DNA from: Patescibacteria group bacterium
GTDB taxonomy: Bacteria; Patescibacteriota; Microgenomatia; Levybacterales; GWA1-39-11
DNA: 64,000 nt
Assembly (NCBI GenBank): GCA_035549295.1
Contig: DASZRG010000043.1
Location: 1,910 to 65,909, forward strand
Direction: 5' to 3'
Shown here: one piece after another, positions 6,978-38,276 of the stretch
How the letters are laid out: every line of letters begins with the position of its first letter
Position numbering within the stretch: the first letter of the stretch is position 1
Notes under the pieces: generated by a model
Told to the model about the DNA's origin: nothing
Database searches by the model: none
Seen by the model: the letters and a program-made list of their open reading frames with translations, nothing else
Position numbers and translations under genes: made by a program

Positions 6978-7745
6978 TTATTTTCCTAAAAATACCTTCT
7001 CAAGCGTTGGGATTGAATCCTTGGTAATAACCAAGTAGCTACTATTCAAAACTTCATAAGTGTTGATGCTGTGAGTTGGTAATACGCTCGCGCCATCAAT
7101 ATTTCTAACTGATCTAACAACACTCTTTGCGTCTGCAACAAAAAGGAATTTGTTTGTTTTATTCTTCTTTGTTACAACTTCAAGTGTTTTAAGCAATTTA
7201 TTCATTTCGGATGTTTTTCCTGATGCGCCGGTTACATCAATTGCAATAATTCGACCAGCAGCTAACTTTTGTGAAAGAGCTGAAAAAATTGCTTTTTTCT
7301 TCATTTGTTTTGATAATTTAAGCTCAAAATTGCGAGGTTTTGGACCATGTGCAATTCCTCCTCCAACAAAAATAGGTGCTTTTATCGCTCCGTGACGTGC
7401 ACGACCTGTACCTTTTTGTCTATAAATTTTTCTAGTTGAACCGATAACTTCTCCGCGAGTCTTGGTAGACGCTGTACCTTGTCTTTGGTTAACCAAATAA
7501 ACACGAATCGCCTGAGTCATAAGATCTTCATTGATCTTTGCTCCAAATATCTCTGCTGGAAGACTAATTGTTCCGCTTTTTGCACCATCTATACTAAAAA
7601 CAGGGAGTGAGAGACTTGTGCTCTTTGCAGTAACTGTCTTTTCGGCTTTAGGTGCAGCAGCACGTGAAACAGCAACAACTTTTGCCTTTTGTGTTGTTGA
7701 ACTTTTGATATTTGATTTTTGATTTTTGATCTTACTTTCCGGCAT
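6978..7745 (-). CDS. rplD: 50S ribosomal protein L4. Start placed at the internal ATG 7743-7745; the tracked ORF extends to 7835 but would overlap rplC
   Basis: The L4 core is present (QRQGTASTKTRGEV ... GPKPRNF). An AAGGAGGAGG ribosome-binding site lies just upstream of the ATG at 7745, and the L3 stop is at 7732. Confidence 0.88.
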   Translation of the reverse strand: MPESKIKNQKSNIKSSTTQKAKVVAVSRAAAPKAEKTVTAKSTSLSLPVFSIDGAKSGTISLPAEIFGAKINEDLMTQAIRVYLVNQRQGTASTKTRGEVIGSTRKIYRQKGTGRARHGAIKAPIFVGGGIAHGPKPRNFELKLSKQMKKKAIFSALSQKLAAGRIIAIDVTGASGKTSEMNKLLKTLEVVTKKNKTNKFLFVADAKSVVRSVRNIDGASVLPTHSINTYEVLNSSYLVITKDSIPTLEKVFLGK

Positions 7746-8676
7746 TTTCCTCCTCCTTTGACTCGACGGAACCTTCAGTGGAGTCGGTCTTTGTCTCGCC
7801 AGAGCTTTCAGCGTCGGCGGACTTTTCAGCTTCATTTACCACTTCAGTTGCAGTTGCTGGTGTCGCATCAGTTGGCGCCTCGACAACATCTGCTGCAGGT
7901 GCTGTCTCAACGACTTCTGCCGTTTCTTCAGTCTTTACTTCTTCTTTTCCAAGATCTGCGACTTCTGCAATCTGGGATAAATCCTCCTGAACTGTCTCTA
8001 TCTTTTCTTCTTCTTTTTTCTCAGCCCAAAGAGGAGTGAAGTTTTTGTTCTTTCGACCAACCTTATTTAAAACAACTATGCTTCCACGAGTTCCTGGGAT
8101 CAAACCTTTAACCAAAATTAAATCATCTTTGATCTCAAGAACCTCAAGGTTTTTGACAGTTACTTGCTCATTACCCATGCGACCGGCCATTTTTTTACCT
8201 TTGTAAACACGGCCTGGAGTTGTACCTGATCCGCTTGATCCGCGAGCACGCTCACGATCTGACTGTCCATGAGTTCTTGGTCCACCAGCAAATCTGTATC
8301 TCTTAACAACACCTGCAAACCCTTTTCCTTTTGAAGTTCCAGTTACGTCTACGTAGTCGCCAGCCTCAAAAACCTCATCAATTACAACTGGCGATCCGGC
8401 TGTCGCGCCTGCGACATCATCTACCCTTATTTCGCGAAAAAAGCGGGGTGTTGTTGATAATCCCGCTTTTTTTATGTGGCCGCTCGTTGGTTTGTCAGGG
8501 CGCATATTTTCTCCGAATGAGAGTTGAATGGATGAATAACCCTCTTTTTCAGGAGTTTTGACCTGAGAAACGACGTTTCCACCCACGGCGATAATCGAAA
8601 GCGGAACGCGGGTTCCATCTTCCAAAAAGCCTTGCGTTTGAGCAATTTTTTGACCAATAAGACCTGTAATGTTCAT
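7732..8676 (-). CDS. rplC: 50S ribosomal protein L3, with a roughly 110 aa acidic Glu/Thr/Ala-rich C-terminal tail. An alternative start lies at 8721
   Basis: The N-terminus MNITGLIGQKIAQTQGF matches L3. The tail runs in frame to the stop at 7732. Confidence 0.9.
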   Translation of the reverse strand: MNITGLIGQKIAQTQGFLEDGTRVPLSIIAVGGNVVSQVKTPEKEGYSSIQLSFGENMRPDKPTSGHIKKAGLSTTPRFFREIRVDDVAGATAGSPVVIDEVFEAGDYVDVTGTSKGKGFAGVVKRYRFAGGPRTHGQSDRERARGSSGSGTTPGRVYKGKKMAGRMGNEQVTVKNLEVLEIKDDLILVKGLIPGTRGSIVVLNKVGRKNKNFTPLWAEKKEEEKIETVQEDLSQIAEVADLGKEEVKTEETAEVVETAPAADVVEAPTDATPATATEVVNEAEKSADAESSGETKTDSTEGSVESKEEENAGK

Positions 8677-8791
8677 GTTTTTTAAGGCAACAAAAAAGCG
8701 ACATCGAGTCGCTCCATTCACGTCCCAGGGATTGAACTCGTAGCATCATGTAACTAAAGAACCTATCAATAGTTTGGACATGTAAGATAGA

Positions 8792-8820
8792 ATTATATAC
8801 TGTTTCGGCCTTAATTGCAA
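8792..8820 (-). promoter_or_regulatory. Putative sigma70-type promoter for the rplC operon (TTGCAA, 17 nt spacer, TATAAT read on the minus strand)
   Basis: On the plus strand, the reverse complement of TATAAT lies at 8792-8797 and the reverse complement of TTGCAA at 8815-8820. It lies upstream of rplC in the gap opened by the CDF/NUDIX insertion. Confidence 0.4.
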
Positions 8821-8867
8821 CACGCACGAAATACGCTCCAAAAAATCATATCTGATATACTAAAATC

Positions 8868-9797
8868 GTGGAAAAACGAGAGGTAAAAAATACACCTCCA
8901 TCATCAAAAAAAGTAATTTTGGCATCTTTTTTGGTCGATCTTTCTGATGTTCTGCTGAGCCTTTTCGCTGCGACCACCTCCGGAAGCATCATCATGTTTA
9001 TCGAGCTAATTGAGGCTATTGCTGACCTTTCAGCATCCGGACTACTTGTAATTGGTGCCAACCGAGCAAAACTACCCGCAAATAAAGCCTTCCCATTTGG
9101 TCACGGCCGTGAAGTCTACTTCTGGAGCTTCATTTCGGCGATTTTGATAATAGGGATCGCATCAACATTTTCGATATATTTTGGCTGGCAAAGACTCACA
9201 AACCCGCATGAAATTAAAAATATTCAGTTAACTTTTCTTATACTTCTTATAACAACCTGCACCAATGGGTATGCGTTCTACATAAGCCTAAAGCGTCTTC
9301 GTGGCAAAATACACTCAAGAAGCATTTTAAATTCATTCCTGAGATCGTCACTGGTCGAAATTAAAACCACTTTTGTACTCGATCTAATGGGAACTGTTGC
9401 ATCAATTCTGGGATTTTTCGCATTACTAATATATGTTGCAACAGGCGACTTACGATTTGATGGAATTGGAGGAATTACGGTTGGATTCACACTTGCTACG
9501 CTCGGAATACTTCTGATTCTTGGAATACGAGACCTCTTAGTTGGTAAAAGCGCATCAAATGAGACTTTGGAACTTCTCAAGAAAATTGCCCTCACAATAC
9601 CTGAAGTAAATGATGTTTTGGAAGTAAAAACAATGCACATTGGGTCAGAAAGGCTTCTTGTAAACATGAATGTTACGATGAAAAATAACCTCACGACACA
9701 AGAAGTCGCAAAAACTATAGATGAAATCGAAAGAAGAATAAGAATAGAGATGCCAGCCGTAAAACATATTCAGGTCGAACTTGACCTTCCAGAATAG
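8868..9797 (+). CDS. Cation diffusion facilitator (CDF) family metal efflux transporter; GTG start
   Basis: The 309 aa ORF has six predicted TM helices (HGREVYFWSFISAILIIGIA) plus a C-terminal cytoplasmic CDF domain. It is encoded opposite to the flanking ribosomal genes. Confidence 0.8.
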   Translation: MEKREVKNTPPSSKKVILASFLVDLSDVLLSLFAATTSGSIIMFIELIEAIADLSASGLLVIGANRAKLPANKAFPFGHGREVYFWSFISAILIIGIASTFSIYFGWQRLTNPHEIKNIQLTFLILLITTCTNGYAFYISLKRLRGKIHSRSILNSFLRSSLVEIKTTFVLDLMGTVASILGFFALLIYVATGDLRFDGIGGITVGFTLATLGILLILGIRDLLVGKSASNETLELLKKIALTIPEVNDVLEVKTMHIGSERLLVNMNVTMKNNLTTQEVAKTIDEIERRIRIEMPAVKHIQVELDLPE

Positions 9798-9808
9798 TAA
9801 TTTATAAT
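9781..9808 (+). promoter_or_regulatory. Putative promoter TTGACC (9781-9786), 16 nt spacer, TATAAT (9803-9808), placed 8 nt before the NUDIX ATG, consistent with a leaderless mRNA
   Basis: The hexamers are read directly. There is no Shine-Dalgarno sequence between the -10 element and the ATG at 9817. Confidence 0.45.
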
Positions 9809-9816
9809 CACAATAT

Positions 9817-10239
9817 ATGAATCAGCGAGTCGTCATGGGCGGATTTATTGTCCGAGATAAAAAATTTTTGATTGTAAAACGATCCAAAAATGATAGTTTT
9901 CTTCCAGGATTTTGGGAAATACCAGGCGGCAAACTCGAGCATGGAGAATCTCCAGAATCTGGTTTGTATCGGGAGCTCCTGGAAGAAACAGGATTGAAAG
10001 TAAAGCCTATTAGCGCACTTTCTTCGTGGACTTATGGAAATGTAGACAAAACACAGTTCATTCAAATAGACTATTTATGCGAAATAGAGCAAGATGCACA
10101 AGTTATTTTAAGCGAAGAACACGAAGAATATAGATGGGTTGATTTTGAAGAGGCTAAAAAAATGGATATAACAAGTCCTATGAAAACTGAAATTTTGAAA
10201 TTTGAACAAAATCCGCTAGTGAGAACTTACTTCTCCTAG
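9817..10239 (+). CDS. NUDIX hydrolase (MutT-like)
   Basis: The Nudix box GGKLEHGESPESGLYRELLEETGL (G-x5-E-x7-REUxEExGU) is present in a 140 aa ORF. Confidence 0.85.
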   Translation: MNQRVVMGGFIVRDKKFLIVKRSKNDSFLPGFWEIPGGKLEHGESPESGLYRELLEETGLKVKPISALSSWTYGNVDKTQFIQIDYLCEIEQDAQVILSEEHEEYRWVDFEEAKKMDITSPMKTEILKFEQNPLVRTYFS

Positions 10240-10242
10240 AAG

Positions 10243-10554
10243 CTACATTTTAATTTCAACATCAACTCCGGCTGGAAGATCAAGGTGAATAAGAGACTCA
10301 ATTGTCTTTTCAGTTGGCGAAATAATATCTATGAGTCTTTTGTGAGTCTTGAGTTGGAAGTGTTCACGAGCATCTTTGTCGATAAAAGGTGACTTATCAA
10401 CTGTAAAAACGCTTCTTTTTGATGGTAGCGGTATAGGACCTGCAATTTTTGCTCCAGTTCTGATAGCCGTATCAAGGATTTGTTGACACGTTGAATCTAT
10501 GATCCTTGAATCATATGATTTTAGTCTAACTCTGATTCTTCCTTTTTGTGCCAT
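10243..10554 (-). CDS. rpsJ: 30S ribosomal protein S10
   Basis: The 103 aa ORF starts [15 protein letters not shown] and carries the S10 fold sequence. Its stop codon lies 3 nt from the convergent NUDIX stop. Confidence 0.95.
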
Positions 10555-10570
10555 GACTTCCTTTTTAAAA

Positions 10571-10605
10571 TAAAAAAACCTACCGCTTTCAGCGCAGTAG
10601 GTTTA
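10571..10605 (-). terminator. Intrinsic terminator after tuf
   Basis: On the minus strand, a CCTACTGCGC / GCGGTAGG stem-loop is followed by a 7-U run. It sits between the tuf stop (10678) and the rpsJ start. Confidence 0.55.
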
Positions 10606-10677
10606 CACATGCTTTTCTAACCAAAATTGTAAAATGTGCTACCAGAGATCCCGGATCAAGTCCGTGATGACCAAATG

Positions 10678-11859
10678 TTATTTGGTCACTTTAGTAATAA
10701 CTCCGGCTCCTACTGTTCGGCCACCTTCACGAATAGCAAATCTCATTCCTTCTTCAAGTGCGATAGGTACAATAAGCTTTGCACTCATCTTGGTGTTGTC
10801 TCCTGGCATAACCATCTCAACACCCTCACCAAGGAATATTTCACCAGTTACATCAGTCGTTCTGATATAAAACTGTGGTCGGTATCCTTTGAAGAATGGA
10901 GTGTGACGTCCACCTTCTTCTTTGGTAAGAACATAAACTTCAGCTTCAAATTCTGTGTGAGGAGTAATAGATCCTGGTTTTGCTATAACCATTCCACGCT
11001 CAACATCAGCTTTTTCGATACCTCGAAGAAGAAGTCCAGCATTATCTCCTGCTTGAGCATCTTCCAATGTCTTTCGGAAAGCCTCAATTCCTGTGATAAC
11101 TGTTGATTTAGTAGGTTTGATACCAACTATTTCGATTGTGTCGTTAACTTTTGTAATACCGCGTTCTACGCGTCCAGTAACAACTGTTCCGCGACCCTTG
11201 ATTGAGAAAACGTCCTCAACAGGCATAAGGAATGGCTTGTCTGTATCACGAACTGGAGTTGGAATGTACTCATCAACCTTGTCCATGAGCTCCATGATTT
11301 GAGCTTCAGCCTCAGCATCACCTTGAGTTGCTTTAAGAGCTGAACCCTTGATGATTGGTACCTCTGCACCAGGATATTGATATTTTGAAAGAAGTTCACG
11401 AACTTCCATTTCAACGAGATCAATAAGTTCAGGATCTGAAACCATATCAATTTTGTTAAGGAAAACAATAATTGAAGGCACTCCAACCTGGCGAGCAAGA
11501 ACGATGTGTTCACGAGTTTGAGGCATTGGTCCGTCAGCTGCTGAAACAACGAGGATTGCTCCATCCATCTGAGCAGCACCTGTGATCATGTTCTTAACAT
11601 AATCAGCGTGTCCAGGAGCGTCAATGTGAGCGTAGTGTCTTTTGTCTGTTTCGTATTCTTGGTGGGAAATGTTAATCGTAACTCCACGAGCTTTTTCCTC
11701 AGGTGCGTTATCGATATCTTCATATTTTCTTGCTTCTGCGTAACCTTTTTTAGCAAGAACCATTGTGATAGCGGATGTCAAAGTTGTCTTACCATGGTCG
11801 ACGTGACCAATGGTTCCAATGTTGACGTGCGGTTTGTTGCGGTTAAATACTCCAGCCAT
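10678..11859 (-). CDS. tuf: Elongation factor Tu
   Basis: The 393 aa ORF contains [10 protein letters not shown], the DAPGHADY switch region and the NKID motif, and matches EF-Tu along its full length. Confidence 0.97.
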
Positions 11860-12156
11860 TTTTGTAAAAAATAAACCCTTCGTTTAACTCAGGGTGAAAT
11901 ACATGATACAAAACTTTTTAAAAATCGTCAAGAGGTAAATTGCATGCAAATACTCTACAAATATAAATCGTGCGAATATCTACAAATAATAACGGTTTGG
12001 TAATAAGTCTGCGCTACACGAATAAACCCGAATGTAAACGAATGAAATCCGAATAATTTAGTCATCAAGACTAAAGGAGTTAATGATTAGTCTGATGTCT
12101 TAATGATTGATCACTAATTCTTTTAATCCTAATCACTAAAAGGGATTGCTTAATAC

Positions 12157-14625
12157 TTACTTACTGATGGCGCCGAGTTCGACAATTGTTAATCCGTCTC
12201 GTTTTATTTTTTGCAAAACGGGATAATTTTTAACTTCTTTATTTGATGATGAAACTTTTAATATCATTCTAAAAGTATTCTGTGGTGCTGGATCAACCAA
12301 AATTGGAAGCTTATTGCTCATCTCATCTTGCGAAACAAGCGATATTGACAGGAATTTTTCTTTTGGCAAATTGCTGATTACACCTTGCGTGTCAGATATG
12401 AGTGCGTTTGTTTCAGAATTATTTAGGCCAAGAGGTTTTGAAAATTTATCTATGATTTCATCCCTCCAATTGCCAGCATCAATAGTAAACTCTCCTTCAC
12501 TATTCAAATGGATTTTCTTCGGATCAAATTCATAATATATATTTGAATAATTAATATCATTACTAAACTTCAGATTACTATTGCTGCTAACAGTAAAATT
12601 CCATAGTGGATTATTTGAGCTGTAAGACGGCGATGTATATGTAGTTTGGAAATCAGTCGTTAGACTTAGTTGCATTGGTTTTTGAGAGTAGACAAAAATG
12701 TGAGGAGATACTCCTGTAATATAACAATTTCCTACTGAGCCTTGAGATAAGAACAGATTCTGAATAGTATCAACCGTTGATGACGGAAATAGATCGGGTT
12801 TCTTTACCCAATCCGAATACTGATAGTGCTCCATCGCGTCATTTAGAATTGATTTTGTATCGCTAAGTACTTGTGACACGTATTTTGTTTCGAACGAAGC
12901 ACCCCCATCAAGACCTCCATATTGTTTCATGCAACTACTCGTCATAGGTGCTGGCATCGCATAAGTTGAACAGTTTTTATTCATCGTATCAAATAGCTGG
13001 TCAAGATCTGTACCATAGGTTAAGCTGGGATTCGCGCGAGCAACATTAATTGCATATTGCTGTGCAACAACTTTAAAAAATGCATCTCGAACCGCATCGA
13101 TGTTTATATCACTTGGATTATCAGAATAAACATAATAAGAATGTGTAGTTCCTGACGGTGCAACTACTAGTTGTCCATATCCTTCTACATCAAACTCAAT
13201 AAGATTATTTATGTCTCCACCATTCTCATCTATACATGCGTCAGCAGGCGGAGTACTAGAATACTGAGGGGCTGGTGAATTTGTTTGTTGGGCAATGCTT
13301 GGTTGAGACGTTGGGGTTACTTGGGTAATAGAGGGACTAAATGATCGCATCTGAATCGTTTGCTGACCGAGAACTTGCTCACCACTTGCAGTATTTGATG
13401 CTAAATCATTTTCATTTGAAACCATACTTAGATCTGATCTCAAGGCAGGAACTACCTGGGCAAATTTAACATTATAGCCTGAATCCAACTCGACACTACC
13501 TCTTACGAGGTAATATGGAACGTATGTATCCTGTGCCACATCAGTAGGTTTATCAAGATAGATAAGACCCACATCATAAATCACGGCATTGTTATATGTA
13601 GCTTTTGCTTGATCATCTGGATAAACTTTGCTCAGGTCAGTTGCTCCCGATCCGTCAGGGACCGTAAAGCTATAAAGTGCTTTATGGCTCTTTAACGAAG
13701 CTAGAGCTTCATCGGTTGAAATAATCTCATCGGCAGACGCACTACTTTTTATTTGCTCAGAGTTTAATATCCAACGAATATTTGAATCGATTGACAACAG
13801 TGACCCATCTGAAGTTACTGCAATTGTTATAGTGTTAAATGAATTTGGTCGAGCAAGCCCATCAAGACCGGAACTTTCAGATATTATATTTTTGTCTTGC
13901 GGTGAATCAGCATTTTCAACAACGCCCGGCAGAATTTGCGAGATAGGTTTGTTAACAGGCAGATTCAATGCCCCTCCCAAGTTTACAACAGGCAAGCCAA
14001 GGCTTGTTCTATGACACTCTACAAAAGTAACAGATGAGGGATAGCCTGTTTTTTTATAGGTATGCTGACAAGAAAGGAATGAATCTGCTAACCCTATACT
14101 CTTTATTACACTCTGTGCCATGTCAATCGGAGTCGAAGAGGAAATATTATCTGAGTTAATTGTGCTTATTTTAAAGTCTCCATACGAACGATAGTTAAAT
14201 TCTCCCGACGATTTGTTAAATTGCATTATTCCACGCTTCTCGGGATCTACTAAATTGTCAAACACCACGTTTGGGTCACCCGCTGTTTCTTTAAGCTGGT
14301 CAAGACCGAATTTATTTCCAAAGGCAAACGCTTCGGCGGTCGTAAAATTGGATTTGAGAATATATTTTGAAACAGATACAGGAGCAACTGAACTACTAGG
14401 CTGTTTTTCAGTGTAATAATTAAAATACACTTTTTGGCTCGGTGTTTCTGCCGTTTTTGAGGTTTTATTTCCCTTAGCTGGTTCGTTTTGTGCGACTTTT
14501 GGTTTGTTTAGTAGTAAAAATATTGCTAGCACCAAAGTAATGAATATAGCAATTCCGCAAGCTATAAAAATCCAGTTCTTTTTGAAGTTAAAATTTTGAA
14601 ATAAATTCCTGATCTTTTGGATCAT
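12157..14625 (-). CDS. Large hypothetical extracytoplasmic protein (822 aa) with an N-terminal membrane anchor
   Basis: An N-terminal TM helix (NWIFIACGIAIFITLVLAIFLLL) is followed by Ser/Thr/Asn-rich, low-complexity domains. I do not recognise any family. Confidence 0.6.
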   Translation of the reverse strand: MIQKIRNLFQNFNFKKNWIFIACGIAIFITLVLAIFLLLNKPKVAQNEPAKGNKTSKTAETPSQKVYFNYYTEKQPSSSVAPVSVSKYILKSNFTTAEAFAFGNKFGLDQLKETAGDPNVVFDNLVDPEKRGIMQFNKSSGEFNYRSYGDFKISTINSDNISSSTPIDMAQSVIKSIGLADSFLSCQHTYKKTGYPSSVTFVECHRTSLGLPVVNLGGALNLPVNKPISQILPGVVENADSPQDKNIISESSGLDGLARPNSFNTITIAVTSDGSLLSIDSNIRWILNSEQIKSSASADEIISTDEALASLKSHKALYSFTVPDGSGATDLSKVYPDDQAKATYNNAVIYDVGLIYLDKPTDVAQDTYVPYYLVRGSVELDSGYNVKFAQVVPALRSDLSMVSNENDLASNTASGEQVLGQQTIQMRSFSPSITQVTPTSQPSIAQQTNSPAPQYSSTPPADACIDENGGDINNLIEFDVEGYGQLVVAPSGTTHSYYVYSDNPSDINIDAVRDAFFKVVAQQYAINVARANPSLTYGTDLDQLFDTMNKNCSTYAMPAPMTSSCMKQYGGLDGGASFETKYVSQVLSDTKSILNDAMEHYQYSDWVKKPDLFPSSTVDTIQNLFLSQGSVGNCYITGVSPHIFVYSQKPMQLSLTTDFQTTYTSPSYSSNNPLWNFTVSSNSNLKFSNDINYSNIYYEFDPKKIHLNSEGEFTIDAGNWRDEIIDKFSKPLGLNNSETNALISDTQGVISNLPKEKFLSISLVSQDEMSNKLPILVDPAPQNTFRMILKVSSSNKEVKNYPVLQKIKRDGLTIVELGAISK

Positions 14626-14667: not shown

Positions 14668-15333
14668 CTACTTTTGTTTAACTAAGAAGTATTCTTCGCG
14701 AGGCAAACCTTCTCTGAGCTTTAAAATTCTTTCGTAATCATGTTTTTGAGACTTGTGGGCTGCCATCGCTGCAAGCTTTGTGTCCCAAACACTTGAAACA
14801 TCGACAACCTCATCTATATCTTCCATCTTGTATCCATCTGGCCTGTAGACAAAATATGGCTGACCTTTTTGTCGATCCGTCATTTGTCTAGTATTTGCCG
14901 TATACATGATCTTTTTAATAAAAGGTGACCTTTCAAAGACGAATGACGAAACCATGGACATAACTATGTGATCTATATGACCTGATCCGCCATTGGGATT
15001 GGAAGTGAGTATCAATTCGGGTTTTATTTTCTCAAGATGCTTCTCAATTGAATCGGCTATTTTATGATAGATCGAATTGGAAAGCGTGCCGTCAACAAAA
15101 CCTAGGAAAAAAACTTTTTTGATTCCCAAAATTTTTGCGGATTTTCTAAGTTCGTCGGCACGAACTTCGGATAATGGTTTACCATTTCTTAAACTATCCT
15201 TCCCTATTTCTCCCTTAGTAGCACAAAGCAAATATAGATCGTATTTTTGGGCAAGAAGCGCTATCGTCCCGGCCGGCCCGAAAGCCTCGTCATCCGGGTG
15301 GGCGAAAATACATACTGCGGTGCGGTTTTTCAC
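14668..15333 (-). CDS. PIG-L / LmbE family N-acetylglucosaminyl deacetylase
   Basis: The N-terminal AVCIFAHPDDEAFGPAGT motif (HPDDE) is characteristic of PIG-L. It lies upstream of, and co-directional with, the 822 aa gene. Confidence 0.75.
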   Translation of the reverse strand: MKNRTAVCIFAHPDDEAFGPAGTIALLAQKYDLYLLCATKGEIGKDSLRNGKPLSEVRADELRKSAKILGIKKVFFLGFVDGTLSNSIYHKIADSIEKHLEKIKPELILTSNPNGGSGHIDHIVMSMVSSFVFERSPFIKKIMYTANTRQMTDRQKGQPYFVYRPDGYKMEDIDEVVDVSSVWDTKLAAMAAHKSQKHDYERILKLREGLPREEYFLVKQK

Positions 15334-18856: not shown

Positions 18857-19753
18857 TTATTGTTCATTTGCAACTCTTTCAAGATCTTGACCATTAATCT
18901 TGCCCATTTTAATACTATCTGTTACAAGTCTATTTGAAGGATTTGCTGTTTCTAGGATCACTTCTTCAGTTACGCGCACACCGAATTGACCTAATTTATC
19001 GGTTAGGTTTCTGTGAGTATCTCCTATTGTAATTAGAACCTTTAGCTGTCCCAAACTTAATTTTTGAAGTAAATCTGGATCTTTTTCGACTAAGGACGCT
19101 ATTTGTTGACCAAATTGACCTACCATAAACCATTCCCTTAAAGACTCAAATGCAACTGTATTTATAATTTTAGCCTTTTCCACTTCTGAGCCTTGTCCAG
19201 TAATTCCATAAATAACATCTCCTTGCTCTATCATCCCGCTTCTTAACTCATCTCCCTCTTCATTATCTACATCAAAAAAGCTTACTCTTGTCTGTGTGCC
19301 AGAAATTGCATCTGCAATTCTGCGATTAAAGGGGTACTGAACAAAATCTTGAACATCCCTATTATCCTGTGCCGATTCACCCGTATCTGCAAGAAAATCT
19401 AAACCTTCTTGTAAATTTTTAGTCCAGCCAAGTCCTTCAAGTAAATAGATATCTGCATCGCTAACTTGCTGCTCATAGCTTTGGTCGCCTAATTCCTCAG
19501 GCGTAGCATGTCTTCCGTATCTAATATGAGTATGGATACCTTGACCAAATTCACTTAAGAACTGGTAACCCTGGCCTAATTCTTCATCTTCTTGCAATCT
19601 ACTAGGAGGCACCAAAGGCGAAATTCTCTCTTTCTTTTGTGGTTCTTGAATAACATAATCTCCGTTTTCCTTAAAAAAGGAATTATTATGCCATGCCACT
19701 TGCGCATCAAGTCTACTATGTATACCTTGCTCAGCTGTATCGTCAATACTCAT
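18857..19753 (-). CDS. Hypothetical acidic protein (298 aa), flanked by the msrB 3'-end direct repeats
   Basis: Clean ORF. A TGTTATATT -10-like element lies 5 nt upstream of its ATG. Confidence 0.5.
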   Translation of the reverse strand: MSIDDTAEQGIHSRLDAQVAWHNNSFFKENGDYVIQEPQKKERISPLVPPSRLQEDEELGQGYQFLSEFGQGIHTHIRYGRHATPEELGDQSYEQQVSDADIYLLEGLGWTKNLQEGLDFLADTGESAQDNRDVQDFVQYPFNRRIADAISGTQTRVSFFDVDNEEGDELRSGMIEQGDVIYGITGQGSEVEKAKIINTVAFESLREWFMVGQFGQQIASLVEKDPDLLQKLSLGQLKVLITIGDTHRNLTDKLGQFGVRVTEEVILETANPSNRLVTDSIKMGKINGQDLERVANEQ

Positions 19754-24510: not shown

Positions 24511-25116
24511 ATGTACACTCTTGCCCTTGATCACTTCGAAAAGAATGACCCCATATTATTTGAGGTTTCAAAAAACACAGAACCTTTTGAACTTGAAATA
24601 CATCCATACCCTTTTATCAGACTTCTCAGATCTATAGTTGGACAACAGCTTTCTGTAAAAGCGGCGAGTACTATTTTTGGCCGATTTGAAAATCTTTTTG
24701 AAAACAAAAATATTACACCCACCGGTTTATTAAAAATCACAGATGACAATTTAAGATCGGCGGGAATTTCTTATCAAAAAATTTCTTACCTTAAAGACTT
24801 TGCAAATAAAATAGTTGACGGCGAAGTGGTCCTTGAAAAATTTGCATTACTTGAAAATGAGGAAGTTATCGTAGAACTCACCAAAATAAAAGGCGTAGGC
24901 CGATGGACGGCGGAAATGTATTTGATGTCAACACTTGCGAGACCCGATATTTTTTCATATGGGGATTTGGGACTGCAAAATGCGATAAAAAAACATTATG
25001 GCATGAAGAATAAACCAACGATAAAACAAATGGAAAAACTTTCAAAAAAATGGTCGCCATTTAGAACTTACGCAGCAAGAATTTTGTGGAAAAGTCTTGA
25101 AAATAATCCAATATAA
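24511..25116 (+). CDS. alkA: HhH-GPD family DNA glycosylase (AlkA-like DNA-3-methyladenine glycosylase II)
   Basis: The helix-hairpin-helix GPD motif IKGVGRWTAEMYLM ... SYGDLGL is present. Confidence 0.75.
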   Translation: MYTLALDHFEKNDPILFEVSKNTEPFELEIHPYPFIRLLRSIVGQQLSVKAASTIFGRFENLFENKNITPTGLLKITDDNLRSAGISYQKISYLKDFANKIVDGEVVLEKFALLENEEVIVELTKIKGVGRWTAEMYLMSTLARPDIFSYGDLGLQNAIKKHYGMKNKPTIKQMEKLSKKWSPFRTYAARILWKSLENNPI

Positions 25117-25120
25117 TGTC

Positions 25121-25678
25121 TTAACTGATTTTTGCAACAATACCCTTAAATTGCATATAAATAACCTGAGCGAGAACTGAAAAGATTAAAACCATTGCCA
25201 TAAGCTCCCAAGAACGAAGCTCGAAAAATCCGTAATAAGCAACCTTTTTTGTATTTGTTACAATTTCCCAGGAATTGATTCTTAATATTCGCCCAAGCAC
25301 CATACCAAATCCGACTAAAAAATTTACAAAATATATAACCTTCATACTATTTTTTTTCTTAAATTTTTCCGCAATCATTCTTTCAAAAGGGTTTAGAGCT
25401 AAAACGAATGTAATAATTCCAAGCACGACGAGCACAAGATACATAAATAAATCCAACAATATATATACCCCACTTATTTTTTGCATATCTTCGAAAAAGT
25501 GATAAATATCGGTCAGCAAATATACTGTATTGGGCAAAAAACCCAACCAAACAACTCCTAAAATAACTCGTGTGATAAGTGACTGAGACTTATACATCAC
25601 TACGGCGATTACGACGGGGAGAAGTGCTAGGAGGATGTTAAAAGACATCCACTGCAAATTAAAAGCTAAAACATCCAT
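25121..25678 (-). CDS. Hypothetical polytopic membrane protein (185 aa)
   Basis: About six hydrophobic helices; no recognised motif. Confidence 0.5.
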   Translation of the reverse strand: MDVLAFNLQWMSFNILLALLPVVIAVVMYKSQSLITRVILGVVWLGFLPNTVYLLTDIYHFFEDMQKISGVYILLDLFMYLVLVVLGIITFVLALNPFERMIAEKFKKKNSMKVIYFVNFLVGFGMVLGRILRINSWEIVTNTKKVAYYGFFELRSWELMAMVLIFSVLAQVIYMQFKGIVAKIS

Positions 25679-30992: not shown

Positions 30993-31766
30993 TTAAACTT
31001 CAATTCTCATCATATCTTCGCCAACAATGACTTCGCAATTGGCAATATTTTTGATGGTTGCGATCATCTCCTCTTCGCGACCCACGCATTGAGGACCAAT
31101 ATGAGTTAAAACTACTTTCTTAAATCCGCCAATTTTTGCCAAGTTACCAATATCCTCGGGACATAAATGATTACCTATCAATGACTTTTTATCCGGGAAG
31201 GAACATTCAAGTATTGCTATATCGGCATTGCGACCTAGCTCACATATTGTTTCGTCATAACCCATATCTCCTGAATAGACAATGGATTTATCTGAAAAAT
31301 CCAATCGATATGCAAGACTATCTGCGGTGTGTTTTATGCGTGAAGTTGTTACTTTAAAATCAGATGAAGCAATAACAGTACCATCATTAATACTTTGAAT
31401 ACTAAATACATCTTCTAATTTGAAATCTTCTTTATACAATTTCCAAACATTCAACATAATGTCTTGCACACTTGGTGGAACGTTAACTAAAACTTTTTCA
31501 AGTTTTCTATTACGAGTCTCCACGCATCGTCCCTGCATAAATTGGATAAGATCCACATTGTGGTCTATGTGATGATGAGTAATAAAGATATGAGTTGGTT
31601 TAACAAATATATCCATCCCACTCGAGAGCATTTTATGTAACACGCCACCGCCCATATCAAATAATAAATACGAGTCTCCAATTTCAATTCCCCAACCGGA
31701 ATACGATCTAAGCGGTTTATTAGGGGACGGCGCACAGAATCCGGTGCCGTAGAGAGTTAATTGCAT
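30993..31766 (-). CDS. MBL-fold metallo-hydrolase
   Basis: An HxHxDH motif (ITHHHIDHNVD) with downstream His/Asp ligands in a 257 aa ORF. Confidence 0.75.
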   Translation of the reverse strand: MQLTLYGTGFCAPSPNKPLRSYSGWGIEIGDSYLLFDMGGGVLHKMLSSGMDIFVKPTHIFITHHHIDHNVDLIQFMQGRCVETRNRKLEKVLVNVPPSVQDIMLNVWKLYKEDFKLEDVFSIQSINDGTVIASSDFKVTTSRIKHTADSLAYRLDFSDKSIVYSGDMGYDETICELGRNADIAILECSFPDKKSLIGNHLCPEDIGNLAKIGGFKKVVLTHIGPQCVGREEEMIATIKNIANCEVIVGEDMMRIEV

Positions 31767-31912: not shown

Positions 31913-34060
31913 TTACTGGGCTGTAATGCGGCCTGTGAATGTGGATTTTGCGAGCATTGCTTGGACAATGTTCTGTGGAACTTCTTCATAGTGTGATGGC
32001 TCCATGTAGTAAGTTGCGCGACCCTGTGACATAGACCTGAGAGTTGTTGCATAACCTGAAAGCTCTGATAGTGGAACCATTGCAAGAATAATTCTTGCAT
32101 TTCCACGCTCTTCAGATCCTGAAATCTGTGCACGCTTTGAAGAAAGATCTCCAATAACATCTCCCATAAACTCCTCAGGTGTTGTGACTTCAACTTTCAT
32201 GATTGGCTCAAGAAGTTTCATGTCACCTTTTTTAGCTGCTGCTTGAAGTGCCATAGATGCAGCAATCTTAAATGCGATATCTGACGAATCGACATCATGA
32301 TATGAACCATCGTAAACAGTAACTTTCAAATCAACAATTGGATACCCTAATAGAATTCCTTTCTCGAGAGTTTCAGCAACTCCCTTACTGACTGATGTTA
32401 CAAATTCCGCTGGAATCGCACCACCCTTAATTGCATTTACAAACTCATATCCTTCACCGCGTGGATTTGGCTGAATTCTCAACCAACAATGTCCATATTG
32501 TCCTCGTCCTCCTGTTTGCTTAATATACTTACCCTCCCCTGTTGCTTCAATTCCAAATGTCTCTTTGTATGCAACTTGAGGAGCACCAACATTTGCAAGC
32601 ACATTAAATTCTCGCTTCATACGGTCTACCATGATCTCAAGTTGAAGCTCTCCGACTCCAGAAATAATAGTCTGGTTGGTCTCGTGGTTGGTCTTAACTG
32701 TAAATGTTGGATCTTCTTCCATGAGACGCTTTAGAGCAAGCCCCATTTTTTCTTGGTCTGATTTGGTCTTTGGCTCAATGGCAAGTGAAATAACAGGTTC
32801 TGGGAAGGTAATCTTTTCAAGAACAATTGGTTTTGTTTCATCACAAATTGTATCTCCGGTTATTGTGTCTTTAAGCCCTACTACAGCAACTATTTCTCCA
32901 GCATAAGCTTCCGCTATCTCTTCTCTCTGATTGGAGTGCATCAGAAGAAGTCGACCTACACGCTCTTTTACATCGCGAGTTGAATTGTAAGCGTAAGAAC
33001 CGGATACCAACTTACCAGAATATATACGAACGAAAGTAATTTTTCCGACGTGCGGATCAATTTGGACCTTAAATGCAAATCCTGTAAATGCCTCTTCAGG
33101 AACTAATTTTCTTGTTTCATCAGTATTTGTCTTTGGATTGATACCCTTAACTTCACCAAGATCAGCAGGAGATGGAAGGTAGTCAACAACTGCATCAAGA
33201 AGTGGCTGAACTCCTTTGTTGCGAAGCGATGTACCTGCATAGATTGGAACTAATTTATATCCGACAACTGCTTTGCGAAGTCCTTGTTTCAACTCTTCAT
33301 TTGAGATCTCTTCACTGTTGAGGTATTTTTCAAGAAGTGTGTCGTCATTTTCTGCAATCTTTTCGATCATCTTGTGACGATATTCCTCAACTTGTGCCTT
33401 CATATCAGCAGGAATTTCATCTGAAATATCGTACTTTGCTCCAAGCTCTTCCCCGCCCCAAGTAAGTGCTTTCATATTGAGAAGATCAACAACTCCTTTA
33501 AAATCGTTCTCAGCACCAATCGGAAGAACCATAATGCATGGGTTTGCACCGAGTCTATCCTCAATTGATTTAACGGTCTTTAGAAAGTCAGCACCGAGCT
33601 TGTCCATTTTGTTAACAAAACAAATTCTTGGAACATGATATTTATCAGCCTGACGCCATACAGTCTCTGACTGTGACTGTACACCTTCTTCTGCATCAAG
33701 AACAGTTACGGCTCCATCTAAAACACGAAGTGAACGCTCAACCTCTGCTGTAAAGTCGACGTGCCCGGGAGTATCAATAAGATTTATTCTGTATGGGATA
33801 TCTTGCCCTTCTGAACGTCCAAGTGGTGTATGTGTCCAAAAAGTGGTAGTTGCCGCAGAAACGATAGTAATACCTCGCTCTCGCTCTTGGTCCATCCAGT
33901 CCATTACTGTATTTCCATCGTCGATATCTCCAATTTTGTATGACTTTCCAGTATAGTAAAGAATACGTTCTGAGGTGGTTGTTTTACCTGCATCAATATG
34001 CGCAATAATTCCAATGTTGCGAATTTTATCGAGTGGTACTTGTCGTGATGTGTCTGCCAT
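31913..34060 (-). CDS. fusA: Elongation factor G
   Basis: The 715 aa ORF has the N-terminus [22 protein letters not shown] and matches EF-G along its full length. Confidence 0.97.
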
Positions 34061-34204
34061 AAATAAAAATAAACTCGAGCTACTTGCCTCGAGGTTTATA
34101 TTCTATCAAAAATTTCCTCCCCCTGCAATAATGCGCAGTGGCTGAGTTGGATCATCACTGATTGTAAACTGATTCACGCTGATTTAATTTCACAAAATGA
34201 TTTT

Positions 34205-34213
34205 TGCTATAAT
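34205..34213 (+). promoter_or_regulatory. Extended -10 element TGCTATAAT, 6 nt upstream of the pepP ATG (leaderless configuration)
   Basis: TGnTATAAT lies at 34205-34213 and the ATG at 34220. Confidence 0.45.
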
Positions 34214-34219
34214 CGTCCA

Positions 34220-35302
34220 ATGAGTGGAAACAGAATTAAAATTCTTCAGGAGAATTTGGTGGATTATAAGATTGATGCGCTCCTTGTTTCATCGGCTATT
34301 AATATTCAATATCTAACAGGTTACTCGAACTTCTCAAAAGATGAGAGGGAGGCGTATCTTTTTGTTACGGGAACATCCGCAACTCTTTTTACTGACTCAA
34401 GATACATTGAGGCGGTCGAAAAAATCATTCCTAAAAATGTTAATGCCACAACCAAAAGACCAATTTCTGATGAAATAAACAAAATCGTAAAAGAAGAAAA
34501 CGTTGAAAAAATTGGTTTTGAAAATAACTTTACATATGATGAGCATTCGCGATTTAAAAAGAAAATATCTGCAAAACTTGTTTTGGTCGACAGCCTAATT
34601 GAAGAACTTCGAAGCGTAAAGGATGATTCAGAAATTGAATCAATTAAAAAAGCTGCAGCACTAACCGACAAAACGTTTACATTTATTAAAAATCAAATAA
34701 AGATCGGTTCTACAGAAAAACAAATTGCGTGGGAAATGGAGAAATATATTCGAGAAAATGGTGGCATCTTGGCTTTCGATACTATAGTAGCTTTCGGTGC
34801 AAATTCTTCGGTGCCGCATCACTTAACATCAGATAAAAGACTTAAGACTGAAGATGAATTTGTTTTACTTGATTTCGGATCGAGAGTCGACGGATACTGC
34901 TCTGACATGACGCGGACTATTCTCACAGAAAGCGCATCGGATCGCGCAAGAAAAATTTATGAAGCAGTTTTAGAAGCTCAAGAGTCATCCGCTCAATTGA
35001 TTAATCAATTAATCAAAGCGTCAAAACCTGTTGATGGAGCAGTTATTGCTCGACGCGCAAATGAAGTATTAAAACAACATGGGTTTGCCGACGTTCCACA
35101 TGGGCTCGGCCATGGGATAGGACTTGAAGTACATGAGCTACCTCATCTTCATCCAAAATTGACAGACGAAATACTTGTTGAGGAGAATTATTTCTCAATA
35201 GAACCAGGAATATATATACCAGGATTTGGTGGAGTTAGAATTGAGGATGATTATTTGATGACAAAGAATGGGCTTGAGCAAGTAACAAAATCACCGAAGT
35301 AA
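34220..35302 (+). CDS. pepP: Xaa-Pro aminopeptidase / M24 family metallopeptidase
   Basis: The pita-bread fold carries metal ligands in the motifs HGLGHGIGLEVHE and DGYCSDMTRT. Confidence 0.85.
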   Translation: MSGNRIKILQENLVDYKIDALLVSSAINIQYLTGYSNFSKDEREAYLFVTGTSATLFTDSRYIEAVEKIIPKNVNATTKRPISDEINKIVKEENVEKIGFENNFTYDEHSRFKKKISAKLVLVDSLIEELRSVKDDSEIESIKKAAALTDKTFTFIKNQIKIGSTEKQIAWEMEKYIRENGGILAFDTIVAFGANSSVPHHLTSDKRLKTEDEFVLLDFGSRVDGYCSDMTRTILTESASDRARKIYEAVLEAQESSAQLINQLIKASKPVDGAVIARRANEVLKQHGFADVPHGLGHGIGLEVHELPHLHPKLTDEILVEENYFSIEPGIYIPGFGGVRIEDDYLMTKNGLEQVTKSPK

Positions 35303-35429
35303 TCGAGATACTAGATATTAGAAACAAGTAACTACTTAAGGATTAAGTTAAAAAAAGTTTAAAGTTATTATTCAAATATATTGATCCAAATCACATACAA
35401 CTCGCATAATTCATGATTAAATTCGCATT

Positions 35430-36596: not shown

Positions 36597-36663
36597 GATA
36601 AAAAGTCACATTAAATCAAAGAAGGTTGATAATAGAAAATATTTGTTTTATTCTTGAGGATGA

Positions 36664-38266: not shown

Positions 38267-38276
38267 CTTAGATAGT

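What the first reader, a model, noticed from the sequence alone, without database searches (positions are those of the whole stretch)
8722..10245. The S10 operon is split: rpsJ is separated from rplC by an opposite-strand CDF transporter plus NUDIX pair, with stop codons converging 3 nt apart
The otherwise universal order rpsJ-rplC is interrupted by 1.5 kb encoding a GTG-initiated CDF metal exporter and a MutT-like NUDIX hydrolase on the other strand. The NUDIX stop (10237-10239) and the rpsJ stop (10243-10245) are 3 nt apart with no room for terminators. Transcription of the insert must therefore run antisense into rpsJ, and rpsJ/tuf transcription into NUDIX. rplC has acquired its own candidate TTGCAA-17-TATAAT promoter (8792-8820).
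Basis: partly seen in the sequence, partly recalled or inferred. Interest (0 to 1): 0.5.

Follow-up and report, generated by a model that had tools for sequence, protein, structure and literature searches.

The report
Old ribosomal-operon break with conserved leader
In this candidate-phyla-radiation bacterium, the S10 gene is separated from the L3 gene by two opposite-strand genes, but relatives show this is an old, tolerated insertion into a pre-existing operon boundary marked by a conserved, undescribed promoter and leader with an attenuator hairpin in front of L3.

Summary
rplC (7732-8676, -), a GTG-started CDF transporter (8868-9797, +), a NUDIX hydrolase (9817-10239, +) and rpsJ (10243-10554, -) are all there. 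The stop codons lie 3 nt apart, and TTGCAA-17-TATAAT sits at 8820-8792.

- rpsJ-rplC adjacency is not universal. Plastids and a cyanobacterium in my own sample keep rps10 with tuf.
- The insert is not recent. Five further genomes or contigs (tuf 91-93% identical where present) carry the orthologous CDF at the same site. In two of them the stops are 1 and 8 nt apart.
- The rplC promoter was not acquired because of the insertion. It belongs to a roughly 130-nt module found in 16 distinct sequences, including relatives where rpsJ sits directly upstream on the same strand.

The module consists of a promoter, an 11-codon near-leaderless uORF, an invariant box, and a covarying hairpin plus U-run immediately before rplC. 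It has no Rfam match. Different cargo genes sit at this junction in other relatives, so it acts as an insertion hotspot.

Convergent read-through is plausible but untested, and tightly convergent gene pairs occur elsewhere in this genome. Overall interest is modest. The leader is the more novel element.

The parts
7732..8676 (-). rplC (ribosomal protein L3, 314 aa with a long acidic C-terminal tail); first gene of the rplC-rplD-rplW-rplB... cluster
   Evidence: ORF. Pfam Ribosomal_L3 1.4e-16. The N-terminus MNITGLIGQK matches relatives.
8692..8715 (-). Terminator-like hairpin (GGAGCGAC-loop-GTCGC) followed by U6, ending 15 nt before the rplC ATG; proposed attenuator
   Evidence: Found by the scan. 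Conserved in 15 distinct sequences, with 3 pairs showing compensatory GC<->AU changes and 95.8% of cells paired.
8722..8735 (-). Invariant leader box TCAATCCCTGGGAC
   Evidence: It is invariant, apart from a single A-to-G change in L082, in the five loci found through CDF homology, independently of the DNA pattern. Part of the box (CAATCCCTGG) was required by the metagenome search pattern.
8746..8781 (-). 11-codon upstream ORF (MSKLLIGSLVT*) whose ATG lies 10 nt after the -10 hexamer, so it is near-leaderless
   Evidence: same length in 16 distinct sequences, stop codons TGA/TAA/TAG, no indels, and synonymous changes in codons 7-9.
8792..8820 (-). rplC promoter TTGCAA-17-TATAAT
   Evidence: TTGCA and TATAAT are conserved in all related leaders, and also in L001 and L002.
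8853..8861 (+). Extended -10 (TGaTATACT) of the CDF gene, 6 nt before the GTG start; implies a leaderless mRNA
   Evidence: Invariant in alignment A1. Present in all six CDF-bearing loci, 6-10 nt before the start codon.
8868..9797 (+). CDF-family cation transporter, 309 aa, GTG start
   Evidence: Pfam. NCBIfam TIGR01297 scores 110.6 against a cut-off of 82.35. N-terminal conservation.
9781..9808 (+). TTGACC-16-TATAAT inside the 3' end of the CDF gene, 8 nt before the NUDIX ATG; likely the NUDIX gene's own near-leaderless promoter
   Evidence: 11 of 12 matches. A -10 element 6-8 nt before the NUDIX ATG is also present in L082 and L102.
9817..10239 (+). NUDIX hydrolase, 140 aa, with a complete Nudix box (GKLEHGESPESGLYRELLEETGL); substrate unknown
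   Evidence: Pfam NUDIX 4.9e-22. Below all NCBIfam equivalog cut-offs.
10240..10242 (.). 3-nt spacer between the convergent stop codons
   Evidence: Sequence. The equivalent spacers are 8 nt in L083 and 1 nt in L087.
10243..10554 (-). rpsJ (ribosomal protein S10/NusE), 103 aa
   Evidence: Pfam Ribosomal_S10 9.1e-33.
10566..10604 (-). Hairpin (11 pairs) plus U7 between tuf and rpsJ, ending about 18 nt before the rpsJ ATG; the tuf terminator, which rpsJ transcription must read through
   Evidence: Conserved with changed stems in L082, L083, L085 and L087. No promoter-like site lies between it and rpsJ.
10678..11859 (-). tuf (EF-Tu)
   Evidence: Pfam.
11903..11931 (-). TTGACG-17-TATCAT, candidate promoter of the tuf-rpsJ unit
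   Evidence: Conservation not tested.

Best explanation
In this Patescibacteria lineage the S10 'operon' was already two transcription units before anything was inserted.

The first unit is tuf-rpsJ. It has a promoter upstream of tuf, and a terminator-like hairpin between tuf and rpsJ that polymerase must read through to reach rpsJ.

The second unit is rplC and the genes after it. It is driven by its own promoter and gated by a roughly 110-nt conserved leader. The leader contains a near-leaderless 11-codon uORF, an invariant box, and an intrinsic-terminator-like hairpin plus U-run 8-45 nt (mostly 8-20) before the rplC start.

The short stretch between the rpsJ stop and the rplC promoter is a permissive landing site. 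In an ancestor of the window's clade it received a CDF transporter, and then or later a NUDIX hydrolase, on the opposite strand. Each has its own extended -10 promoter and a leaderless mRNA. Other relatives carry different cargo there, or have lost it.

Shown: the gene map, the age and conservation of the arrangement, the conservation of the promoter and leader, covariation in the hairpin, and the fact that the leader predates the insert.

Inferred:
- The hairpin acts as a regulated attenuator. The most likely mechanism is autogenous control by an operon-encoded ribosomal protein with NusA, by analogy with L4 control of the E. coli S10 leader, with the translated uORF possibly contributing.
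- Convergent CDF/NUDIX and rpsJ transcripts overlap, and this is simply tolerated in a compact genome.
For: Conserved arrangement:
- rplC<- ->CDF [NUDIX | none | 123-aa ORF] <-rpsJ<-tuf is found in L082, L083, L085 and L087.
- The short contig L104 has the CDF divergent from the rplC leader, and L102 has a NUDIX divergent from it. rpsJ and tuf lie outside both contigs.
- CDF homologues at or below 54% identity lie elsewhere in their genomes.

Phylogeny:
- The clade {window, L082, L083, L085, L087, L094, L100} has 100% bootstrap support on concatenated tuf+S10+L3+L4.

Leader:
- It is present in 16 distinct sequences and always lies just before rplC.
- There is one copy per genome.
- It is present where rpsJ is directly upstream on the same strand with no insert.
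- The hairpin shows covariation.
- There is no Rfam match at E<=1 or at gathering thresholds.

Wider relatives and lineage specificity:
- L001 and L002 keep a promoter, a short uORF and a hairpin plus T-run before rplC, with a different leader sequence. L004 keeps the hairpin plus T-run.
- A hairpin plus T-run within 70 nt of rplC occurs in 4 of 79 sampled genomes, all of them Patescibacteria.

Junction cargo:
- Other cargo at the same junction includes a 219-aa ORF (L001), DinB-like plus NUDIX (L002), Fic plus NUDIX (L102) and a Fic C-terminal remnant (L099).

Leaderless style and tight packing:
- About 16-18 of 59 ORFs have a -10 element 6-10 nt before the start codon.
- Tight convergent pairs occur elsewhere in the window and in L087.
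Against: - No transcript data exist. Promoters, leaderless starts and terminator function are inferred from sequence only.
- The leader helices P1 and P2 are invariant or change only by wobble, so the upstream structure has no covariation support.
- The leader does not fold unusually stably (z = -1.43).
- No conserved antiterminator pairing was found.
- There is no similarity to E. coli rRNA above a shuffled null, so mimicry of a ribosomal-protein binding site is unsupported.
- Thirteen of the leader sequences were retrieved with a pattern that fixed 23 leader bases, which inflates apparent invariance.
- Relationships inside the clade are unresolved, so one gain plus losses cannot be separated from other histories.
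Confidence: 0.7

Rival explanations
1. A recent insertion of a CDF and NUDIX cassette broke a continuous rpsJ-rplC operon, and rplC then evolved a compensating promoter.
For: The gene map itself. Most sampled bacteria have rpsJ and rplC about 100 nt apart (median of 79 loci).
Against: The same promoter and leader lie between rpsJ and rplC in relatives without any insert. The CDF at this site is shared by genomes only 59-64% identical in the CDF protein. The promoter-hairpin architecture extends to more distant relatives that carry other cargo or none.
Confidence: 0.05
2. The operon is not really split at the RNA level. Strong tuf-rpsJ transcription reads through the 1.4-kb insert in antisense and re-enters the rplC leader. 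This transcription collides with and silences the CDF and NUDIX genes during growth, and conversely CDF/NUDIX transcripts are antisense to rpsJ. The result would be an excludon-like reciprocal switch between ribosome synthesis and the two accessory genes.
For: - There is no room for a terminator between the stops.
- No terminator-like site is found even where relatives have 75-238 nt of space.
- On the minus strand, only weak terminator-like sites lie between rpsJ and the rplC leader.
- The opposite-strand orientation and tight convergence are kept in five genomes.
Against: - Nothing here bears on RNA.
- The second gene of the insert is variable or absent, and the whole insert has been lost in close relatives. 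That argues against an essential regulatory role.
- Equally tight convergent pairs of unrelated genes occur elsewhere in the window.
- Rho-dependent termination was not assessed.
Confidence: 0.15
3. The conserved element before rplC is not a ribosomal-protein-sensing attenuator. One alternative is a ribosome-sensing leader-peptide attenuator, in which uORF translation alone sets read-through. Another is a DNA operator or small-RNA gene that happens to end at a terminator.
For: - The uORF keeps its length, frame and a stop codon (TGA, TAA or TAG) in 16 sequences.
- Its ATG sits at the distance from the -10 element that is typical of this genome's leaderless genes.
- L001 and L002 also have short uORFs at the same place despite different sequence.
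- A direct repeat TTACATG...TTACATG is visible in the alignment.
Against: - Codons 1-5 and the post-uORF box are invariant at the nucleotide level, including synonymous sites. This holds even in the five loci found independently of the pattern and points to RNA-level recognition rather than peptide coding.
- The uORF stop lies about 35 nt before the hairpin, too far for a terminating ribosome to mask it.
- The hairpin stem covaries while upstream sequence does not, so no conserved antiterminator exists.
- The only route for polymerase into rplC passes through the hairpin, so the element cannot be a stand-alone small-RNA gene without also acting as an attenuator.
Confidence: 0.25
4. The arrangement is an assembly chimera or mis-join.
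For: The source is a metagenome-assembled contig.
Against: An independent assembly from a sequencing run (L081) is 100% identical across rplC-CDF-NUDIX-rpsJ-tuf. Four other genomes share the layout.
Confidence: 0.01

Closest known systems
E. coli S10 operon leader (L4-interacting RNA, with L4/NusA-mediated transcription attenuation and translational repression)
   Same: Both have a promoter-proximal structured leader of about 100-170 nt that ends in a terminator hairpin just before the first gene of the L3-L4-L23-L2... cluster (background in PMC3616713, and PMC2965389).
   Different: The E. coli leader precedes rpsJ, whereas this one precedes rplC, with rpsJ in another unit. There is no sequence or structure match to any Rfam family. 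This leader carries a conserved near-leaderless uORF. The effector is unknown. The E. coli element is itself restricted to Gammaproteobacteria (PMC3616713).
Cyanobacterial and plastid str cluster (rps12-rps7-tufA-rps10) separate from the rpl3 cluster; archaeal EF-1alpha-S10 linkage (the archaeal case is from my own knowledge)
   Same: S10 travels with tuf and is transcriptionally and physically detached from L3 (PMC6330054; cyanobacterial locus L042).
   Different: Here rpsJ and rplC remain neighbours (1.7 kb apart), separated by an opposite-strand insert or by the leader alone. tuf is itself detached from rpsL, rpsG and fusA.
Leader-peptide transcription attenuators (trp, his; erm-type translation sensors)
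   Same: A short ORF at the 5' end of a leader, followed by an intrinsic terminator before the structural genes.
   Different: No run of regulatory codons. No conserved alternative antiterminator pairing. The uORF ends about 35 nt before the hairpin. The uORF appears to be leaderless.
Tightly convergent or overlapping 3' ends in compact genomes; bidirectional terminators; excludons
   Same: Convergent genes with stops 1-8 nt apart and no dedicated terminator between them.
   Different: No hairpin spans the junction. The nearest palindromic hairpin (10576-10604) lies beyond rpsJ and has a good U-run only on the minus strand. No evidence of regulation.

Membership tests
Cation diffusion facilitator (CDF) transporters | Cation_efflux transmembrane domain plus C-terminal dimerisation domain, scoring above curated cut-offs | tested here: met
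   Pfam PF01545 73.5 bits (cut-off 26.6) and PF16916 30.7 bits (cut-off 26.7). NCBIfam TIGR01297 110.6 bits (cut-off 82.35).
Cation diffusion facilitator (CDF) transporters | Canonical metal site A (D/H-x3-D in TM2 and H/D-x3-D in TM5), which defines metal specificity | tested here: inconclusive
   The alignment shows E-x3-D in TM2 and a conserved ETKTTFVLD in TM5 with no His. No specific equivalog (FieF, ZitB, MntE, DmeF) reaches its cut-off.
NUDIX hydrolases | Nudix box G-x5-E-x7-R-E-U-x-E-E-x-G-U and a Pfam NUDIX domain | tested here: met
   The sequence GKLEHGESPESGLYRELLEETGL fits the box. PF00293 scores 78.8 bits against a cut-off of 21.1.
MutT (8-oxo-dGTP diphosphatase) | Score above the NCBIfam equivalog cut-off | tested here: not met
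   NF008044 scores 61.8 against a cut-off of 148, and TIGR00586 scores 49.4 against 97.9. 'MutT-like' is only a superfamily resemblance.
Canonical bacterial S10 operon (rpsJ-rplC-rplD-... under one promoter and leader) | rpsJ immediately followed by rplC on the same strand | tested here: not met
   1.7 kb with two opposite-strand genes lies between them.
Canonical bacterial S10 operon (rpsJ-rplC-rplD-... under one promoter and leader) | [quoted passage not shown] | tested here: met
   ORFs in the window and Pfam-annotated relatives.
Known ribosomal-protein leader RNAs (Rfam) | Match to a curated covariance model | tested here: not met
   No hit on the leader at E<=1 and no gathering-threshold hit anywhere in the window.
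Intrinsic (Rho-independent) terminator or attenuator | G+C-rich hairpin directly followed by a U-run, with the pairing maintained in evolution | tested here: met
   Eight pairs, 95.8% of cells paired, and 3 pairs with compensatory changes across 15 sequences.
Intrinsic (Rho-independent) terminator or attenuator | Demonstrated termination and regulated read-through | not testable with these tools
   Needs Term-seq or in vitro transcription.
Leader-peptide attenuators | Short translated ORF in the leader | tested here: inconclusive
   An 11-codon ORF is conserved in length and stop codon and is positioned like this genome's leaderless genes. Translation has not been shown.
Leader-peptide attenuators | Mutually exclusive antiterminator and terminator pairings controlled by ribosome position | tested here: not met
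   The terminator stem covaries while the upstream sequence is invariant, so no conserved complementary segment exists. The MFE and centroid structures keep the hairpin.

The most novel reading that the evidence does not exclude
The conserved element before rplC may be a new, Patescibacteria-specific class of ribosomal-operon attenuator. In this reading, translation of a leaderless 11-codon uORF, together with recognition of the invariant RNA box, lets the cell gauge free ribosomes or a free ribosomal protein. That signal sets read-through of an intrinsic terminator into the whole downstream ribosomal-protein cluster. The rpsJ|rplC boundary it creates would be a modular junction that repeatedly captures and loses accessory genes.
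Probability: 0.2. Interest if true: 0.6.

Novelty: new member of a known kind. Interest (0 to 1): 0.4.

Why it matters
The S10-spc gene string is used as a syntenic marker block for phylogeny and binning of uncultured bacteria, and as a textbook case of conserved operon structure. This case shows that in one CPR lineage the rpsJ|rplC joint is a long-standing regulated boundary and an insertion hotspot. That explains why a 'broken' operon is tolerated. It also cautions against reading such breaks as recent or disruptive.

The analysis also yields a concrete, testable candidate cis-regulator for ribosomal-protein synthesis, made up of a promoter, a leaderless uORF, an invariant box and an attenuator hairpin. 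No such regulators are described in the group. In addition, it points to widespread leaderless expression in the genome.

Tried and rejected
- **Rfam and tRNA searches.** Rfam on the region at E<=1, Rfam on the whole window and ARAGORN found nothing on the leader or anywhere else.
- **Literature.** Searches for ribosomal leaders or leaderless translation in Patescibacteria found no papers.
- **Other copies of the leader.** A covariance model of the leader found none in the window or in 23 loci. L001 and L002 gave only weak hits (E 0.04 and 0.18) at the homologous position.
- **rRNA mimicry.** The best local alignments of the leader to E. coli 16S and 23S scored below the shuffled null mean. 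This is a weak test, because the organism's own rRNA was not available.
- **A second overlapping ORF.** An ORF starting at the ATGA overlap with the uORF stop (part of the 92-aa ORF 8549-8827) was rejected. Its ATG is absent in L087 and L090, and indels break the frame.
- **The leader as a plus-strand promoter for the CDF.** Reading the conserved leader as a TGGACA -35 was rejected because the leader is equally conserved in genomes without the CDF.
- **Leader helices P1 and P2.** RNAalifold proposed them, but they have no covariation, and an alternative MFE pairing exists.
- **Remnants of the insert.** tblastn at 1e-4 found no CDF or NUDIX remnants in the insert-free spacers.
- **Chance hit.** One metagenome hit, L095, falls inside a coding region and was discarded.
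Full report
**1. What is there**

| Gene | Coordinates | Strand | Evidence |
|---|---|---|---|
| rplC | 7732-8676 | - | true ATG at 8676 |
| CDF transporter | 8868-9797 | + | GTG start; Cation_efflux and ZT_dimer |
| NUDIX hydrolase | 9817-10239 | + | complete Nudix box |
| rpsJ | 10243-10554 | - | Ribosomal_S10 |
| tuf | 10678-11859 | - | EF-Tu domains |

- The NUDIX stop (10237-10239) and the rpsJ stop (10243-10245) are 3 nt apart.
- TTGCAA-17-TATAAT lies at 8820..8792 on the minus strand.
- An independent assembly from a sequencing run (L081) is identical over the whole arrangement, so this is not a mis-join.
- The CDF meets the CDF superfamily cut-off but no metal-specific equivalog.
- The NUDIX protein is below every equivalog cut-off, including MutT. 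'MutT-like' is therefore only a superfamily resemblance.
- The GTG start is supported by conservation of residues 1-42 (TM1) in homologues. It is also supported by a conserved extended -10 just upstream (below).
- The deposited 267-aa gene model (P0001) looks truncated.

**2. Relatives: the arrangement is old**

The closest CDF homologues (59-64% identical) come from four other Patescibacteria genomes whose tuf is 91-93% identical to the window's. In all four, the CDF lies on the opposite strand between rplC and rpsJ (L082, L083, L085, L087).

- The second gene of the insert varies. L082 has a NUDIX (52% identical), L083 and L087 have nothing, and L085 has an unrelated 123-aa ORF.
- Where the CDF is last, its stop lies 8 nt (L083) or 1 nt (L087) from the rpsJ stop. 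Tight convergence is therefore a lineage habit, not a peculiarity of this genome.
- The short metagenome contig L104 also has the CDF divergent from the rplC leader. L102 has a NUDIX divergent from it, plus a same-strand Fic gene upstream. rpsJ lies outside both contigs.
- CDF homologues at 52-54% identity lie in unrelated contexts.

**3. The rplC promoter and leader predate the insert**

Aligning the rplC-CDF spacer of the five genomes showed an unexpectedly conserved stretch. It runs, in order:
- the TTGCAa-17-TATAAT promoter;
- 9-10 nt later, ATG TCC AAA CTA TTG and onward, an 11-codon ORF;
- an invariant box TCAATCCCTGGGAC;
- a hairpin followed by T6-9, 8-45 nt (mostly 8-20) before the rplC start.

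A metagenome scan with a pattern taken from this leader returned 18 loci. Seventeen have the element immediately upstream of rplC, and L095 is a chance hit.

In L093/L100, L094, L101/L103 and L105, rpsJ lies directly upstream on the same strand. The rpsJ-to-rplC gaps are about 165-345 nt and hold only non-coding sequence plus the promoter and leader. In the L090/L097/L099/L106/L107 group the gap is about 680 nt and also holds a 74-aa Fic remnant.

So the boundary with its promoter existed first, and the CDF landed between the rpsJ stop and that promoter.

A concatenated tuf+S10+L3+L4 tree places the five CDF-bearing genomes and two insert-free genomes (L094, L100) in one clade with 100% bootstrap support. 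The inside of the clade is unresolved, apart from window+L083 at 89.5%. The simplest history is one insertion in the clade's ancestor followed by losses, but this is not proven.

**4. The junction is an insertion hotspot**

More distant relatives (tuf 77-80% identical) show other contents at the same place:
- L001 has a same-strand 219-aa ORF plus 650 nt of non-coding DNA.
- L002 has a same-strand DinB-like gene plus a different NUDIX.
- L004 has nothing.
- L102 has a Fic-domain gene. The L099 group retains a 74-aa remnant of that gene's C-terminal domain (58% identity, E 2e-25).

Among 79 species-representative genomes with both genes, the median rpsJ-rplC gap is 100 nt. Only three exceed 500 nt, and all three are Patescibacteria. 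One cyanobacterium has no rplC within 2.4 kb of tuf-rpsJ. Plastids likewise keep rps12-rps7-tufA-rps10 apart from the rpl3 cluster (PMC6330054). In archaea, S10 follows EF-1alpha (my own knowledge). 'Otherwise universal' is therefore an overstatement.

**5. Anatomy of the leader**

There are sixteen distinct sequences.

*The uORF*
- It always has 11 codons (MSKLL-x4-[VI]T) and ends in TGA (14 sequences), TAA (1) or TAG (1).
- Its variable middle has no indels and shows synonymous changes (GGT/GGC, GTA/GTT/GTC, TCT/TCA, TTA/CTA).
- Its ATG lies 9-10 nt after the -10 hexamer. About 16-18 of the window's 59 long ORFs have a -10 element, often TGnTATAAT, at the same distance from their start codons, while only 11 show a Shine-Dalgarno-like sequence. 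The uORF is therefore probably translated from a leaderless or near-leaderless mRNA.
- However, codons 1-5 and the downstream box are invariant even at synonymous sites in the five loci found independently of the pattern. This argues for recognition at the RNA level.

*The hairpin*
- It is well supported: 8 pairs, 95.8% of cells paired, and three pairs with compensatory GC<->AU changes.

*The upstream helices*
- P1 (CAUGUCC/GGACGUG) and P2 (AUUGA/UCAAU) are invariant or change only by wobble, so they remain unproven.
- The fold is not unusually stable (z = -1.43), and an alternative pairing of the two TTACATG repeats competes with P1.

*Distribution*
- No Rfam family matches.
- A covariance model finds one copy per genome, always before rplC.
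- L001 and L002 share a promoter, a short uORF (17 and 12 codons) and a hairpin plus T-run before rplC, with unrelated leader sequence. L004 shares only the hairpin plus T-run.
- A hairpin plus T-run within 70 nt of rplC occurs in only 4 of 79 sampled genomes, all Patescibacteria.

**6. How it most likely works**

Shown: polymerase can reach rplC and the genes after it only by passing the hairpin and U-run. This holds whether it starts at the conserved promoter or arrives by read-through.

Inferred: the hairpin is an attenuator that sets or regulates expression of the ribosomal-protein cluster. I rank the options as follows.
- About 40%: autogenous control by an operon-encoded ribosomal protein, helped by NusA, acting on the invariant RNA. 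This would be analogous in function to L4 control of the E. coli S10 leader, but it is not a member of that family (PMC3616713; PMC2965389).
- About 25%: control through uORF translation.
- About 25%: a constitutive partial terminator that simply sets dosage.
- About 10%: something else, such as a DNA operator.

No conserved antiterminator exists, and there is no similarity to E. coli rRNA.

A second conserved hairpin plus U7 (10566-10604) lies between tuf and rpsJ, about 18 nt before the rpsJ ATG, with no promoter after it. rpsJ is therefore probably expressed by read-through from tuf, which would give less S10 than EF-Tu.

**7. The insert and convergent transcription**

- The CDF has a conserved extended -10 (TGnTATACT) 6-10 nt before its start codon in all six CDF-bearing loci.
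- The NUDIX has its own -10 element 6-8 nt before its ATG in the window, L082 and L102.
- Both genes therefore look like independent leaderless units pointing at rpsJ.
- No terminator-like site separates them from rpsJ, even in relatives with 75-238 nt of space.
- On the plus strand, the first hairpin after the NUDIX stop is the tuf-rpsJ hairpin, which has a poor T-run in that orientation.

Overlapping convergent transcripts are thus plausible but unproven. Their significance is doubtful for three reasons. An unrelated HhH-GPD/DUF1361 pair has stops 4 nt apart in the window, and the same two gene families sit 0 nt apart by the called gene coordinates in L087. The second insert gene is variable. 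The whole insert is dispensable in close relatives. An excludon-like reciprocal switch remains a minority possibility.

**8. Verdict**

The split is an old, conserved insertion into a pre-existing regulated boundary. It is a further instance of S10 being detached from L3, and is not exceptional in itself. The more interesting product is the undescribed rplC leader with its attenuator and leaderless uORF, which is a new member of the known class of ribosomal-protein operon leaders. Interest is 0.4.

Noticed in passing
window, many genes, e.g. 16678 (+), 30993-31766 (-), 34220 (+), 18857-19753 (-), rpsL 39521-39943 (-), 14668-15333 (-): About 16-18 of 59 long ORFs have a -10-like hexamer, often an extended TGnTATAAT, ending 6-10 nt before the start codon. 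Only 11 of 59 have a Shine-Dalgarno-like sequence. Leaderless mRNAs therefore appear to be a major expression mode in this genome.
   Followed up: partly
window, the 20 nt upstream of the starts at 1392, 2699, 3141, 4209, 4915, 2200, 5442 and 39483 (all minus strand): Inside the ribosomal-protein cluster, many start codons are preceded by a tandem 7-mer. Examples are GCCAAAAGCAAAAA, GCTAAAAGCTAAAA/T and GCCATAAGCCAAAA, or CTAATATCTAAAAT, CTAATATCTAGAAT and CTAATATCTAAATT. This could be a non-Shine-Dalgarno translation-initiation or coupling signal.
   Followed up: no
window 10566-10640 (-): The tuf-rpsJ spacer holds a conserved hairpin plus U7. Upstream of it lies a conserved GCAC(T/A)TTTTA(C/A)AA(T/C)TTT motif containing a -10-like TACAAT. 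Both are shared with L082, L083, L085 and L087. Whether the motif is an rpsJ promoter is unknown.
   Followed up: partly
window 24511-25116 (+) and 25121-25678 (-): An HhH-GPD glycosylase and a DUF1361 protein converge with 4 nt between their stops. In L087, the called gene coordinates place an HhH-GPD/DUF1361 pair 0 nt apart.
   Followed up: partly
window 12157-14625 (-): An 822-aa ORF with no Pfam match lies between tuf and the PIG-L gene (14668-15333). In L083, PIG-L sits directly upstream of tuf with no such ORF. In L082 and L085, PIG-L lies close upstream of tuf (one small ORF or a His_Phos_1 gene between them) and no 822-aa ORF is present. The ORF therefore looks like a window-specific insertion.
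   Followed up: no
window 31913-47315: The str cluster is dispersed. rpsL and rpsG (39004-39943) sit next to the large ORFs at 40109-47315, which are presumably rpoB and rpoC. A 715-aa ORF, possibly fusA, is at 31913-34060. tuf is 20 kb away with its own promoter-like site. These gene identities were not checked with Pfam.
   Followed up: no
window 6978-7835 (-) and 7732-8676 (-): L3 carries an acidic C-terminal extension of about 110 aa, as do its relatives. The longest rplD ORF overlaps rplC by 104 nt. Relatives overlap by 14 nt, so the real L4 start is probably the internal ATG near 7745.
   Followed up: no
window 8868-9797 (+): This CDF subfamily lacks the usual His in the TM5 metal site, having a conserved ETKTTFVLD instead, and has E-x3-D in TM2. 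Its metal specificity may be atypical.
   Followed up: no
L102 (Fic gene at 95-1063 in leader orientation) and L099 5590-5814: A Fic/DOC-domain gene sits at the rpsJ|rplC junction in L102. A 74-aa remnant of its C-terminal winged-helix part sits at the same junction in the L099 group. The NUDIX gene in L102 appears to be interrupted.
   Followed up: partly
L085 7834-8163 (-): A 109-aa ORF with no Pfam match is inserted between the tuf hairpin and rpsJ in L085. The tuf|rpsJ joint also accepts insertions. L002 has a GNAT acetyltransferase fragment there, and L041 has a 2.5-kb gap.
   Followed up: no
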